Shown piece by piece: positions 1-12,945 of a stretch of DNA of 39,537 nucleotides; within the stretch, counting starts at the first letter, position 1, and each line of letters starts with the position of its first letter. Source of the stretch: a virus (lineage: Duplodnaviria; Caudoviricetes); the IMG/VR virus record IMGVR_UViG_3300048575_000405, positions 1-39,537 of that record; one strand, 5' to 3'. The translations under genes were made by a program, and so were the position numbers. Under the pieces are notes generated by a model. The model saw only the letters and a program-made list of their open reading frames with translations, was not told the origin of the DNA and ran no database searches.

Positions 1-1191
1 TTATTCATTTGAATTCTCGATATCCACAGATGATTTTCTGGATCGCTTACCCGTCTTTTTCCCATGCTTATTTTGAGTAGATGCGTGAAGTAGGCGGTTA
101 TTGAGTGCATCAGAGAGGCCGTCGAACGAGACTGCCTGCTCAAGTCCGCGCACGTCATCGGCATCAAATGTGACATAGCGCTGAGCCTGGATCTTGATCG
201 ACGCACCGACCATTTTCTCGCGCTGCATGTCGGTAAAATCCGAGAGCTTGTTGGCGTAGTGCTCGTATGTCGCGCGCAGGTCATGCGGCCTGATATTAGC
301 GTTTGTGAGACCAGCCCTCTTGAGGGTCGTCCGCCACGCGCTCGCGATGCCGTCAGCTCGCATGTGCTTGCTGGGCTGGCCGCGGCGCGGGTACACGTAA
401 GGCGTAACAAGATCGGCCGCCCGCTGTTCAGCGAGTCGGCGCAGGAGAATCTGAGCAACGAATTCATTGATCGGGACCGGGCGCCCCTTCCTGGTTCTCG
501 TTGTCTCATCTCTGACCTGAAGCGCCCGCGCCACGAAGTCGATATCATCCCACCGCAGGTGCATCTGCTCGCCGCGACGGATCCCCATGAAGAGGTACAT
601 CGCAACGAATGGGAGTGCGGTACCGTGGGCGTTAGTGACGAGGGCGATGATTTGATCTCGAGTCAAGACCTTGAGCTTGCGAGACACGACCTCCGGAATC
701 TCGAATTCCGGCAGGACTCGGATGTACCCCTTGGTGATCTTCACCCAACGGAGGTACCCACCCAGAACCTTGCGGTGGTTCCTGAGATCGCCGACCGTTG
801 CCCGATCGCAATACTTAGCCCAGAGCTGGTCATTGATGTCAGCGAAAAATCGGTTCCCGAAGAACTTGAGCAAATGGTTTTCCCAGATGCTATCGATCTC
901 TTTTAGAGTGCCGCCGGCGATTTTCTTGCGGCCCTTCACGGTTCCCGCGGCTTGGTTCTCGCGAAAGGCGTAGTAGTCATTCCAGACGTGCTTAAGTCGA
1001 AACTTGAACGCGCTCGCGCCAAGCGAGTCGCGCGTCGCCTCATGAAGCTCTTTCGCCTTAATGGCCTTCTCGTCAGAAGTGAAGGCGCCAAGAACCCTCT
1101 CGTCGTCGCCACATCGGTAAACGTACTTGTCACCAATCCTGAACAAACGATCGACGATCTTGATACGCTTTGGTCGCGTTGACTCACCCAT
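1..1191 (-). CDS. int: Tyrosine recombinase (phage integrase)
   Basis: GIRRGE (catalytic R), TRTRKGR (K), PHDLRAT (HxxR), QRYV (Y); 396 aa. Confidence 0.92.
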   Translation of the reverse strand: MGESTRPKRIKIVDRLFRIGDKYVYRCGDDERVLGAFTSDEKAIKAKELHEATRDSLGASAFKFRLKHVWNDYYAFRENQAAGTVKGRKKIAGGTLKEIDSIWENHLLKFFGNRFFADINDQLWAKYCDRATVGDLRNHRKVLGGYLRWVKITKGYIRVLPEFEIPEVVSRKLKVLTRDQIIALVTNAHGTALPFVAMYLFMGIRRGEQMHLRWDDIDFVARALQVRDETTRTRKGRPVPINEFVAQILLRRLAEQRAADLVTPYVYPRRGQPSKHMRADGIASAWRTTLKRAGLTNANIRPHDLRATYEHYANKLSDFTDMQREKMVGASIKIQAQRYVTFDADDVRGLEQAVSFDGLSDALNNRLLHASTQNKHGKKTGKRSRKSSVDIENSNE

Positions 1192-1205: not shown

Positions 1206-1436
1206 CTAGCCGCAGCGCTTGCGAAGTTCTTTGTCTCTTACCTCGTTCCAATCGACGAGAGTCATATTTCGAGGGCCGTATCGTTTAATCTCGTTGCGAG
1301 AAATTCTATTCTGAAGAGTGCGCCTGACGTACGGCGGAGCTGGGAGCTGCCATAGCTCCTGAAGTTTAACCAGGCATTCGTCTAGCGTGATTAACTCTTT
1401 ACCCTTCATGTCTTCGATGCTCTTTGGTCTTGCCAT
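1206..1436 (-). CDS. xis: Excisionase-like small basic winged-HTH protein
   Basis: 76 aa from ATG 1436 with GAGGT SD; ITLDE...RRTLQNRISRNEIKRYG..TLVDWNEV; directly upstream of int. Confidence 0.65.
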   Translation of the reverse strand: MARPKSIEDMKGKELITLDECLVKLQELWQLPAPPYVRRTLQNRISRNEIKRYGPRNMTLVDWNEVRDKELRKRCG

Positions 1437-1510
1437 AATCACCTCAATAGAATCTGCGTCTAAGTCGCTCGATCGCACATGTCCATCAATTTTCGCGTCG
1501 CGTTTTGATG

Positions 1511-1550
1511 TTGGACAGCGGCGGACAGTGATGGACTGTGGCGGACAATT
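1511..1550. repeat. Four GGAC-core direct repeats at exact 10-bp period
   Basis: ttggacagcg/gcggacagtg/atggactgtg/gcggacaatt. Confidence 0.75.
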
Positions 1551-1598
1551 ATTGAAAACGATTCTCACAACCCACGTTGCCCCCTCTCATGCTGAAAT

Positions 1599-1671
1599 CA
1601 GGCGAGCGCTCGCCTGCCTTATCACACACACCGACCAGACATGCCAGGCCCATCCCGGCACGAGCGCTCGT
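1599..1671. repeat. Two perfect palindromes sharing the core CGAGCGCTCG
   Basis: CAGGCGAGCGCTCGCCTG (1599-1616) and ACGAGCGCTCGT (1660-1671). Confidence 0.8.
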
Positions 1672-1678
1672 CTCAAAT

Positions 1679-1700
1679 CCCCGTCTTTCCGAGGTGTCAT
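1679..1700 (-). promoter_or_regulatory. ATGAC + stem-GAAAGA-stem hairpin motif, copy 2
   Basis: Minus strand ATGACACCTCGGAAAGACGGGG; same architecture as 2024-2045 with a different stem. Confidence 0.55.
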
Positions 1701-1930
1701 GAAGCGGGCCGGTCGCGACTCCGGCTCCTGCTATGGTCTCTCTTCTAAGCTCCTCCACCCATGAGAGTTGAGAATTCTCATGGGCGCTCATTAAAGAGCC
1801 GTGGCGCGTGATTGTAACCATAGTCGGGAACTTCTGCTTTCGCTTTCCCTGCGTTTCTCTAGCGAAGCTTTGTATGCTCACGCCCTTCGGCAGAACTCTC
1901 ATGCTCCACAGCTTCCAACGCCGCCGCCTC
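1700..1930 (-). ncRNA. tRNA-like expanded-cloverleaf structured RNA (231 nt)
   Basis: Acceptor GAGGCGG/CCGCTTC+A; D-like stem GCGTT/AACGC; stem GGGAA/TTCCC; long arm CTATGGTT/GACCATAG; T-like arm GCCGG-AGTCGCGA-CCGGC, all in canonical order. Confidence 0.65.
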
Positions 1931-2018
1931 AACGAATCACTCAAAGCCCCGCCTTAAACTCCTGCGTGCTTTAACGTAGCGTGCGGACACACCTATCTAC
2001 GCCTTTGAGCAATTCACT
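1931..2018 (-). ncRNA. 16-bp RNA helix abutting the 5' end of the tRNA-like element
   Basis: AGTGAATTGCTCAAAG pairs with CTTTGAGTGATTCGTT; all non-Watson-Crick pairs are G-U on the minus strand. Confidence 0.55.
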
Positions 2019-2023
2019 CAAGC

Positions 2024-2045
2024 CTCGGTCTTTCCCGAGCGTCAT
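2024..2045 (-). promoter_or_regulatory. ATGAC + stem-GAAAGA-stem hairpin motif, copy 1
   Basis: Minus strand ATGACGCTCGGGAAAGACCGAG. Confidence 0.55.
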
Positions 2046-2099
2046 CACCTCGTGGACATTTATAAAGGCCATCTGGAGGTGAGCCCTACATCCAGCCTT

Positions 2100-2184
2100 A
2101 AGTCATCACCTCAGGGAATGCGCCCAGGACTTGGTTTCCTTGGGAGGGACGGTGCCCCAAGCGCATTCCCCGAAGCGACGACTT
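2100..2184 (-). ncRNA. 31-bp uninterrupted RNA hairpin with CCCTCCC-containing loop
   Basis: AAGTCGTCGCTTCGGGGAATGCGCTTGGGGC pairs with GTCCTGGGCGCATTCCCTGAGGTGATGACTT; 8 G-U pairs, no other mismatch. Confidence 0.75.
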
Positions 2185-2194
2185 CGGGAGTTGG

Positions 2195-2524
2195 TTAAAA
2201 GACGCCATCCATATCGTCATCCCCATCGGTCGCTTCTGAAGCGTTCGTCTCGCTCTGTGCAGCTGCAAGCTTCGGCAGCTCCCAGTCATAAACAGGCCTT
2301 GGTTGATGCGACTTCGCCATTGCTCGCGCAGCCTCCTCACTTACTGGTGTAACTCGATAAATGCTTGACCCATTGAAATACTGGGTTGTGAACGTGTCGC
2401 CCTCGCTCGGAATGTCAATTCGGCCCATCACCGCTCCAAAGCGCTCCTCTTCGGTCACACGTCCAGCCATGCGAACATGGCCCATTAGTTCAACAACCGC
2501 CCACTTCTCAAATGCCATCCCCAT
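2195..2524 (-). CDS. Conserved phage hypothetical protein
   Basis: WAVVELMGH..AGRV.E...G...RIDIP motif typical of phage early proteins; SD AGGGG. Confidence 0.8.
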   Translation of the reverse strand: MGMAFEKWAVVELMGHVRMAGRVTEEERFGAVMGRIDIPSEGDTFTTQYFNGSSIYRVTPVSEEAARAMAKSHQPRPVYDWELPKLAAAQSETNASEATDGDDDMDGVF

Positions 2525-11354: not shown

Positions 11355-12872
11355 TCAGCCGGCCTTCTCGACGTCTCGCTTGGTCTTGCGCTTTGCCCTG
11401 ATGCCTTTCATGAGCTTCTTGCGATCGGCCTCGACCGAGTGTTCATCAAGCCACGCGTCAGGGAAGCGCTCTTCAAACAGCACCTGTACTTCGTGTGATT
11501 TCTTTTGATCGAGCAACAGGCTACCGAAAACTTCAGTCGCCCGCATCGGAACGATCTCGACTTTATGTTCGCGCTTCATGTCGGCAATGAAATCCATCGC
11601 GTCTTTTGAGAACTCCCAGGCGACAAAGATGCCCTGCTTCTTTTTCTCGCGCGCGAGGGCACCAAAGAACTTCTGCATGTCGGGGCGGCCTGAAGCCGTC
11701 TTCTGGTTTTTTACTTGGATCGGATGTCCAGCGGCGCTCCATCCATCAATGCCGCCGTCGCCAGACCGGCGCTCATTAACGTCCCAGCCCATCATCTCGC
11801 AAACCGTCTCTGCAAACACATGACCGTTCATTGCGCGCAGCTCGGTGGCGGATTGCGGGAGGTTCTTAAGCTCAAACTTTTCCTTGGGGCATTCGCGATT
11901 GATTCGCTCCGCCATGATCTTGCAGGCCACGGGTGAGACGTCGCCAACGACGAAGCGGCGCCCGGTGGCTGAAGCGACTTTAGCGGTGGTGCCTCCGCCA
12001 GCAAAGCAGTCGAGTACGATGTCGCCGGGACCCGAGGCGCAGTCGAGAATGCGCTTGATGAGAGCCTCGGGCTTTTGCGTGGGGTAGCCCAAATTTTCAT
12101 GGCTTACGAACTGAACATCAGTCCAAAGTGATTGAATGGGCACGCCCTTGCCTTCATCCAAATACTGCTTTCTTTGCGGAGTGGAACCTGGTTTTGACTG
12201 AACAACGATTCCAGCCTCGATCAATTTCTGCATTTTCTCCTTAGAGTAGCGCCAGTGCTTCTTCACCCCCATTACTTCGTAATACGGATTGCCCTTCGCC
12301 GCTCCCCCTGGGCCGAGAAGTGTATTTAACCTATATCTTCGGCCCGTCTCAGGCTCCACATAGCGAAACATTTTATCGATGTACCCGTCGGTGTATGCCG
12401 ACATCACTGGATAGAATTTGGACTCCTGGGACTTAACATAGAAAAAGATCGTATCCGTGTTTGGATCAAATCCTAAGCGTCCTTGATGAACATTGTTTTT
12501 TACCGTCTTTACCCTCTGCCAGATAATCTCGTTTACGAAATTCTTTTCCCCAAAAACATCATCCAGCATACACCGCAACCGATGCGACGCATGCCAATCA
12601 CAATGCAAGAAAATGCTCCCCGACTTCTTGAGCTTCCGATGAATCAGCTCGATTCGCGGTCTCATCCACTCAATATAATGTGAAACTCCGCCAGCGAATC
12701 GATCGCCAAACGAACGAAGCTCATACCCATTGCCCCAAATGACCTCATAGTTACGATTCGAAAAAAACGGCGGATCGATGTAGCAAAGCCCCACGCTTTC
12801 GTCGGGTACGTCTTTGAGCCAGTCGAGATTATCGCCACAGATAATGTGATTTTTGTTTACATCAATTTTCAT
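11355..12872 (-). CDS. Beta-class N6/N4 DNA methyltransferase fused to C-terminal Mrr-like endonuclease domain
   Basis: CGDNL, YIDPPF, YPTQKPEALIKRI, VLDCFAGGGTT; C-terminal SGDGGIDG...IQVK. Confidence 0.9.
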   Translation of the reverse strand: MKIDVNKNHIICGDNLDWLKDVPDESVGLCYIDPPFFSNRNYEVIWGNGYELRSFGDRFAGGVSHYIEWMRPRIELIHRKLKKSGSIFLHCDWHASHRLRCMLDDVFGEKNFVNEIIWQRVKTVKNNVHQGRLGFDPNTDTIFFYVKSQESKFYPVMSAYTDGYIDKMFRYVEPETGRRYRLNTLLGPGGAAKGNPYYEVMGVKKHWRYSKEKMQKLIEAGIVVQSKPGSTPQRKQYLDEGKGVPIQSLWTDVQFVSHENLGYPTQKPEALIKRILDCASGPGDIVLDCFAGGGTTAKVASATGRRFVVGDVSPVACKIMAERINRECPKEKFELKNLPQSATELRAMNGHVFAETVCEMMGWDVNERRSGDGGIDGWSAAGHPIQVKNQKTASGRPDMQKFFGALAREKKKQGIFVAWEFSKDAMDFIADMKREHKVEIVPMRATEVFGSLLLDQKKSHEVQVLFEERFPDAWLDEHSVEADRKKLMKGIRAKRKTKRDVEKAG

Positions 12873-12945
12873 GGCCGAGTTGTCGGCGCCTTCAATTCCA
12901 ACCATGACTTAAGATCTCTTTACCACACCTCTGGCGAGTCTTGAA

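What the first reader, a model, noticed from the sequence alone, without database searches (positions are those of the whole stretch)
1594..2190. About 600-nt cluster of contiguous structured RNA inside the early operon, upstream of xis-int
No credible CDS lies between 1437 and 2194, yet the minus strand is tiled by helices: a 31-bp hairpin (2100-2184) whose 8 non-WC pairs are all G-U, a 16-bp helix (1931-2018, again only G-U), the cloverleaf, two GAAAGA hairpins and a palindrome hairpin. The strand-specific G-U bias argues for selection at RNA level. Mutually exclusive folds exist (CCCGAAGT-CGTC-GCTTCGGG versus the long hairpin; GAGGTGATGAC repeated at 2041 and 2102 with a complementary TCACCTC between them). 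Candidate undescribed large phage ncRNA or RNA switch controlling read-through into xis/int.
Basis: partly seen in the sequence, partly recalled or inferred. Interest (0 to 1): 0.8.

Follow-up and report, generated by a model that had tools for sequence, protein, structure and literature searches.

The report
Mosaic RNA island before phage excisionase
The gap in front of this temperate phage's integrase and its likely excisionase gene holds a chain of predicted RNA folds, two of them kept in a related phage and one a small hairpin shared by many unrelated phages, and it is likely cut out of the early message as separate small RNAs rather than being one large RNA or an on/off switch.

Summary
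The helices are real: 31 bp (23 Watson-Crick, 8 G-U) and 16 bp (12+4), minus strand; z -4.2 against -1.6; no Rfam or tRNA hit. The tiling is patchy: 4 of 10 windows fold significantly.

One related phage (G001/L008) has the same island before a different xis-int pair. It keeps the 5' long hairpin and the 3' block (GAAAGA hairpin, three-way junction with compensatory changes, 14-mer), but its middle is unrelated and about 130 nt instead of 390. A phage with this xis-int has no island.

The two GAAAGA hairpins belong to a pan-phage motif: 33 of 71 distinct instances are fully paired, against 2.4 shuffled. This scan found that hairpin before on other DNA (three notes); the long hairpin and junction were not found elsewhere.

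Best reading (0.5): a mosaic of RNA units processed out of the early transcript, DicF-like. Rivals: one large ncRNA 0.2, cis switch 0.15, decay 0.08, coding 0.07. The SD/anti-SD switch is not conserved. Two homologues only; no expression data.

The parts
2100..2188 (-). Module A: 31-bp rod hairpin with a C-rich apical loop; a 7-bp 5' hairpin (2188-2169) is predicted to form first and be displaced. Likely RNase III substrate (inferred).
   Evidence: z -8.1; L008 copy z -4.1; 52 of 54 cells paired, no compensatory substitution, one whole pair deleted in L008; 49 of 56 paired columns identical
2064..2099 (-). Module B: weak hairpin holding the anti-SD-like tract; absent from L008
   Evidence: (z -1.45)
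2024..2045 (-). GAAAGA hairpin, copy 1 (AUGAC, 5-bp stem, GAAAGA loop), 5 nt before module C
1931..2018 (-). Module C: 88-nt unit closed by a 16-bp helix; no homologue found
   Evidence: pair probability 0.93
1790..1930 (-). Module D: weakly folded; 1942-1896 resembles a stretch of L009 (79% over 48 nt)
   Evidence: z -0.18
1758..1784 (-). Module E: palindromic hairpin; no homologue found
1679..1711 (-). Conserved 5' flank plus GAAAGA hairpin, copy 2 (1700-1679), 5 nt before module Y; stem has one compensatory and one consistent change in L008
1600..1673 (-). Module Y: 74-nt three-way junction (13-bp closing stem, two arms), conserved in L008 with 3 compensatory pairs in stem and first arm
1571..1584 (-). 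14-mer identical in L008; holds a 10-nt motif that also occurs in module A of both phages
1549..1944 (-). 131-codon open frame over the 3' half; probably not a gene
1206..1436 (-). Likely excisionase: 76 aa, HTH_17-like predicted fold, no profile hit
1..1191 (-). Tyrosine integrase at the provirus end
2195..2524 (-). Upstream early gene (phrog_29525, unknown function); its stop lies 6 nt before module A

Best explanation
The stretch is an untranslated island of separate predicted RNA folds that is likely transcribed with the leftward early operon and likely cut into separate small RNAs, with the 31-bp hairpin predicted to be an RNase III site and each GAAAGA hairpin likely marking or protecting the start of the unit behind it.

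Shown: the helices; minus-strand polarity; conservation of module A and of the 3' block in a second phage at the same position; an unrelated middle; the pan-phage covarying hairpin 5 nt before modules C and Y.

Inferred: transcription from the early promoter; cleavage of module A; release of the 74-nt and 88-nt units and perhaps of the C-rich loop of A as trans-acting RNAs. Cleavage would also separate the xis-int message from the upstream recombination genes and so could change its stability, as a side effect rather than a switch.
For: (1) Same position in G001/L008, before a different xis-int pair: module A 81% over 91 nt, 3' block 76% over 76 nt, middle unalignable. (2) L002 has the window's xis (56%) and integrase (60%) with no island, so the island is not part of the integration module. 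(3) Module A: 49 of 56 paired columns identical, against 34 of 74 and 54 of 106 fourfold-degenerate sites in RecE and the ATPase; one base pair is lost on both strands; it is the longest helix in both genomes. (4) 3' block: 47 of 50 cells paired, 4 pairs changed on both sides. (5) GAAAGA hairpin: 72 of 121 matches and 33 of 71 distinct 22-mers fully paired, against a shuffle mean of 2.4 (max 9 in 5000). In 67 distinct contexts, 11 have further copies on the same strand and 0 on the other; 6 have a tRNA starting 3-5 nt downstream. The 100 nt downstream fold better than in unpaired controls (median z -1.38, n=64, against -0.19, n=30; p 0.005). In both phages a closing helix starts 5 nt after the hairpin. 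[quoted passage not shown]
Against: Only two homologues: models R1 and R2 found full-length matches in 1 of 49 records. With two sequences the covariation is not significant (30 of 500 shuffles reach it), and module A has no compensatory substitution. The L008 island as a whole folds no better than shuffles (z -1.29; 3' block z +0.75), and its junction stem has pair probability 0.33. tRNA neighbours are not more frequent beside fully paired hairpins (14 of 67) than beside poorly paired matches (6 of 35). The test for a helix starting within 8 nt of the hairpin was not significant (14 of 64 against 3 of 30; p 0.12), and the control set is partly coding. No cis target beyond chance was found in the window (4 complements of 11 nt or more against 4.3 shuffled). 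Modules B-E have no homologue apart from one 48-nt resemblance. Both phages keep an open frame over the 3' block.
Confidence: 0.5

Rival explanations
1. One large ncRNA of a new family, about 370-620 nt, with conserved ends and an expandable middle, working as a single folded unit in the manner of ROOL or GOLLD.
For: Both ends are conserved in order. A 10-nt motif occurs once at each end in both phages and nowhere else on their sense strands. The C-rich loop of module A can pair with the 3' 14-mer region (-11.9 and -15.0 kcal/mol). [quoted passage not shown]
Against: That duplex is matched by 22% and 3% of other 35-nt windows and was noticed after the fact. No promoter-like site and no minus-strand terminator. 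No Rfam match. The GAAAGA hairpin occurs in unrelated phages beside unrelated RNAs. The middle folds only moderately.
Confidence: 0.2
2. A cis-acting switch or attenuator that controls read-through or translation of xis and int, through the short-versus-long hairpin choice in module A.
For: The short 5' hairpin is identical in its stem in both phages and is the predicted fold of the first 30-80 nt. The island lies before xis-int in both phages.
Against: The long hairpin wins by 15.8 and 11.3 kcal/mol, with pair probabilities 1.0 against 0.0 in the window. No terminator. The freed SD-like tract is followed by a two-codon frame in the window and by no start codon in L008. The second repeat and the anti-SD tract are missing in L008. 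L002 runs the same xis-int without an island.
Confidence: 0.15
3. A decaying relic, for example of a tRNA-like cluster, with no present function; the middle hairpins are chance or remnants.
For: Modules B, D and E fold weakly; no homologue of the middle; 8 of 9 RecE relatives lack both conserved modules.
Against: Module A is better conserved than synonymous sites; compensatory changes in the 3' block; both GAAAGA hairpins are intact.
Confidence: 0.08
4. The 3' half encodes a small protein (131 aa here, 172 aa in L008) and the structure is secondary.
For: The same frame is open across the conserved block in both phages (21 of 52 residues identical). The longest open frames have P 0.087 and 0.007 under dinucleotide shuffles. 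A gene caller called both.
Against: Synonymous to non-synonymous changes are 3:7, against 18:12 and 124:65 in neighbouring genes. Indels of 2 and 7 nt put homologous bases in different frames. Codon score -0.11 and -0.02 against 0.05-0.63 for 14 presumed genes. Starts and lengths differ. Only self-hits among 19 and 25 candidates; no PHROG hit for the window ORF and no Pfam hit above cut-off for either.
Confidence: 0.07

Closest known systems
dicBF operon of the E. coli Qin prophage and its sRNA DicF (10.1101/2023.04.14.536235; passages read)
   Same: [quoted passage not shown] This is what the island most likely works like.
   Different: No sequence match in Rfam; several units rather than one; no terminator-like 3' end found; processing untested here.
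RNase III processing hairpins of phages lambda, T7 and T3 (PMC5371410, passages; PMC1540722, passages)
   Same: A long, almost continuous helix just after a stop codon in an early phage transcript.
   Different: Proximal and distal box sequence rules were not tested; the host is unknown; the apical loop is partly conserved, which a pure cleavage stalk would not need.
ROOL and GOLLD RNAs (PMC12286853; passages)
   Same: Prophage-encoded, several hundred nucleotides, hairpin-rich, variable inner parts.
   Different: No Rfam match; no tRNA island here; no conserved pseudoknots shown; only about 230 nt is conserved.
Pan-phage GAAAGA-loop hairpin
   Same: Both copies fit the motif; placed 5 nt before a folded unit on the transcribed strand.
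   Different: Here the units behind it are not tRNAs; copy 1 has G rather than A before the stem.
Lambda nut boxB hairpin, and P1 C4 / P4 CI processed antisense RNAs (recalled; no call)
   Same: A short purine-loop hairpin in an early operon; cloverleaf-like RNAs of about 75 nt processed from early transcripts.
   Different: No boxA or N-like partner was looked for; no Rfam match; no complementary target in the window.

Membership tests
ROOL / GOLLD / OLE large ornate RNAs | Match to the Rfam covariance model | tested here: not met
   none at gathering score; the only hit to E 10 is Ms_IGR-2 at E 8.8
ROOL / GOLLD / OLE large ornate RNAs | Often beside tRNA islands | tested here: not met
   no tRNA in the window or in L008
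ROOL / GOLLD / OLE large ornate RNAs | Conserved covarying structure over the whole length | tested here: inconclusive
   two sequences; ends conserved, middle unrelated
ROOL / GOLLD / OLE large ornate RNAs | One stable transcript that forms multimers | not testable with these tools
   needs expression and structure data
tRNA / tmRNA / tRNA mimic | Cloverleaf with T-arm and acceptor stem | tested here: not met
   ARAGORN none at default, 90% and 80%; only noise-level calls at 70%; Rfam none
RNase III processing hairpin | Helix of about two turns or more | tested here: met
   31 bp here, 22 bp uninterrupted in G001; criterion from PMC1540722
RNase III processing hairpin | Permissive proximal and distal boxes | not tested
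   cleavage site and host enzyme unknown
RNase III processing hairpin | Cleavage in vitro or in vivo | not testable with these tools
   bench test
DicF-type processed prophage sRNA | Untranslated position inside a polycistronic prophage operon | tested here: met
DicF-type processed prophage sRNA | Sequence match to a known sRNA family | tested here: not met
DicF-type processed prophage sRNA | Base-pairing to a host mRNA target | not testable with these tools
   host genome not held; own-genome targets at chance level
Pan-phage GAAAGA hairpin | UGAC, one base, 4 variable pairs, G-C pair, GAAAGA loop | tested here: met
   both window copies and the L008 copy are 4 of 4 paired; family covariation
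Attenuator / riboswitch | Terminator or SD-sequestering platform next to the regulated gene | tested here: not met
   no minus-strand terminator; alternative folds lie 600 nt or more from xis
Attenuator / riboswitch | Alternative folds of similar stability, conserved | tested here: not met
   gap of 11-16 kcal/mol; second proposed switch absent in L008

The most novel reading that the evidence does not exclude
A new family of large phage RNAs whose conserved ends pair across a freely exchanged middle: the C-rich loop of the 31-bp rod docks on the invariant 3' 14-mer, and GAAAGA hairpins punctuate swappable cargo domains, making a modular RNA scaffold at the lysis-lysogeny end of the early operon.
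Probability: 0.2. Interest if true: 0.8.

Novelty: new variant of a known kind. Interest (0 to 1): 0.5.

Why it matters
Temperate phages seem to keep islands of uncatalogued RNA units in their early operons, not only tRNAs. This island gives a tRNA-free test case for the GAAAGA hairpin, which may be one of the commonest phage RNA motifs missing from Rfam: about 1800 IMG/VR stretches are estimated to match one variant of the pattern, and 72 of 121 read were fully paired. A processing assay on this island would test what the hairpin does and could yield two new small RNA classes, the rod and the 74-nt junction. The weight is limited by two homologues, an unknown host and no expression data.

Tried and rejected
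Expression: no RNA holder listed; none was listed at all for 1200-2600. This is no evidence either way.

Sequence searches for the whole island: cultured phages gave 8 records with chance-level 25-33 nt matches; plasmids none; module A alone none; module D 16 chance-level records.

Pattern scans: repeat pair in viral contigs, 5 loci, all unrelated tandem repeats. Module A core, 8 loci, only the G001 record real. 3' core in metagenomes, 21 loci, no whole-element homologue; L067 has the hairpin alone. 5' hairpin in genomes, 25 loci, none continues into the long helix.

Protein-led searches: upstream ORF no relative; RecE in genomes none; ATPase alignment gave only G001 as a close hit among 13. 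The host was not identified.

Models: R1 and R2 on 12 held sources and on 49 records gave only the training pair at high score. Three further R2 records scored 14.5-22.8 bits; they were chosen for carrying the hairpin and their alignments were not inspected. L180 was not searched. The 50 handles were a subset of the loci held.

Hairpin in bacterial chromosomes: 1 match in 21 genomes, not inspected; 5 of 5426 E. coli genomes for one variant.

Rejected by inspection against recalled consensus: hammerhead, group I/II intron pieces, RNase P RNA, k-turn; Rfam agrees.

Dropped rows: one L008 control ORF was read out of frame; helices B, G1 and the L008 long-range row, and B, C-inner and F, were indexed out of register (G1 was redone).

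Literature: no description of the hairpin or island in searches, or in 6 supplementary files of PMC10690425. Three files of that paper were not searched, and the supplement of PMC5737381 could not be read; either could list the motif.

Full report
SETTING. The window is an IMG/VR provirus record. Nearly all genes lie on the minus strand. The left end reads, in transcription order: repressor-like genes, RecE, RecT, an ATPase-like gene, small ORFs, a 757-nt gap (2194-1437), a 76-aa gene and a tyrosine integrase. The 76-aa gene has no profile hit, but its predicted structure matches HTH_17 excisionase-like clusters at TM 0.67, so 'xis' is likely. The host is unknown.

OBSERVATION. The signal is uneven. 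Module A alone has z -8.1. Without it the island has z -2.7, and the middle -2.3, which 2 of 12 control windows approach. Four of 10 windows of 120 nt reach z -2.5. The 31-bp rod is the longest helix in the genome; the 16-bp helix is one of 4 of that length or more among 20. Rfam and ARAGORN find nothing.

A HOMOLOGUE. Nine viral contigs encode RecE relatives. One, L008 (record G001, RecE 79%), has the same island between its last small early gene and its own, different xis-int pair. It keeps module A (window 2188-2098, 81%) and the 3' block (1711-1571), but has about 130 unrelated nt where the window has about 390. L002 has the window's xis and integrase and no island. So the island follows the early operon, not the integration module, and its content is mosaic.

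MODULE A. In the two phages 52 of 54 cells pair. Two pairs change on one side, none on both, and one G-C pair is deleted on both strands. Paired columns are 49 of 56 identical, against about half of the fourfold-degenerate sites in two neighbouring genes; this points to purifying selection, or to recent exchange. The short 5' hairpin is predicted to form first and to be displaced by the rod, which is 15.8 and 11.3 kcal/mol more stable. The apical loop keeps a C-rich tract in both.

3' BLOCK. The GAAAGA hairpin, a 13-bp closing stem and a 7-bp arm give 47 of 50 cells paired and 4 pairs changed on both sides. With two sequences this is suggestive only: 30 of 500 shuffles reach it. In L008 the block does not stand out by energy (z +0.75). 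A 14-mer after the junction is identical in both phages.

THE GAAAGA HAIRPIN. A scan for one variant read 121 matches in 120 viral loci, from 5 of 64 parts of the collection, with about 1800 estimated in all. Seventy-two have all four variable pairs; among 71 distinct 22-mers 33 do, against 2.4 expected. It occurs in cultured phages of several groups, between annotated genes in 6 of 6 records opened. In 67 distinct contexts extra copies are always on the same strand (11 against 0), and 6 have a tRNA starting 3-5 nt downstream. tRNAs were about as frequent near poorly paired matches (6 of 35), some of which may be register variants. Downstream sequence folds better than in controls (p 0.005), upstream does not (p 0.13), and a stricter helix-start test was not significant (p 0.12). 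In the window the two copies, the only ones in the genome, each stand 5 nt before a tRNA-sized closed unit. It is not in Rfam and was not found in the paper searches. Three earlier notes of this scan describe it on other DNA; I had found and counted it before reading them, and I reuse their wording that it marks the starts of RNA units.

The last five bases of the second 11-nt repeat are the hairpin's own AUGAC. L008 has neither the second copy nor the anti-SD tract, and a scan for the pair found 5 unrelated tandem repeats. There is no minus-strand terminator and no sigma-70-like promoter in 1100-2800.

CODING RIVAL. Both phages have a long open frame over the 3' block, in the same register, and for L008 this is unlikely by chance (P 0.007). 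Against coding: 3 synonymous to 7 non-synonymous changes, frame-shifting indels inside the block, non-gene codon scores, different starts, and no homologue. I leave it at 0.07 and regard the open frame as unexplained.

MECHANISM. Most likely the early transcript runs through the island (inferred from gene order and hairpin polarity). RNase III would cut the rod; helix length fits (PMC1540722, passages) and phage precedents exist (PMC5371410, passages). The GAAAGA hairpins would mark or shield the 5' ends of units C and Y, which would persist as small RNAs, as DicF does from the Qin dicBF message (10.1101/2023.04.14.536235, passages). Their targets are unknown; none beyond chance was found in the phage's own transcripts. 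Any effect on xis-int would be through message stability. None of these steps was observed.

COMPARISON AND NOVELTY. It works like a processed-sRNA stretch of a prophage operon. It is not a member of ROOL, GOLLD or any Rfam family (PMC12286853, passages). Papers seen: passages for the five named above and for PMC10690425 (6 supplementary files searched, 3 not); search listing and start of abstract only for PMC12887398 and PMC5737381, whose supplement was unreadable. Lambda boxB, C4 and CI are recalled.

VERDICT. A real, selected RNA island; a new variant of a known kind; interest 0.5. The single large RNA remains open at 0.2.

Noticed in passing
window 2035-2028 and 1690-1683 (-): The invariant 8 nt of the hairpin loop are identical to part of the 23S rRNA 2054-2068 stretch quoted in the abstract of PMC12887398. 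Coincidence or mimicry; untested.
   Followed up: no
window 2158-2149 and 1583-1574 (-); G001 33766 and 34077: A 10-nt motif (GGGGCANCGU) occurs once at each end of the island in both phages and nowhere else on their sense strands.
   Followed up: partly
L088-L112: The short 5' hairpin of module A recurs as an isolated palindrome in 25 loci of unrelated bacterial genomes, 4 of them in one Phenylobacterium MAG; REP-like.
   Followed up: partly
L009 12340-12570 (-): A second gene-free, hairpin-containing stretch in a RecE relative; 48 nt resemble window 1942-1896; whole fold z -0.22; no match in cultured phages.
   Followed up: partly
L023, L024, L032, L034: Three GAAAGA hairpins in tandem directly upstream of a gene that looks like a head scaffold gene (label recalled).
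   Followed up: no
L072 1500-1724 (Cronobacter phage ESP2949-1): GAAAGA hairpin, then a long helix, then a weak beta_tmRNA match (19 bits, E 0.026) upstream of the terminase genes.
   Followed up: no
L027: Three perfect copies of the hairpin and one loop variant in a tRNA cluster; two lie a few bases before ARAGORN-called tRNAs.
   Followed up: partly
window 1481-1548: A 16-nt inverted repeat and a 20-nt tandem repeat between the island and xis, not conserved in L008; possible operator or protein-binding sites.
   Followed up: no
L008 12398-12916: A 172-codon open frame spans the whole L008 island (P 0.007 by shuffle) without coding signatures; unexplained.
   Followed up: yes
window 11355-12905 (-): A 516-aa DNA methyltransferase with an extra C-terminal region lies between the lysis and immunity regions.
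   Followed up: no
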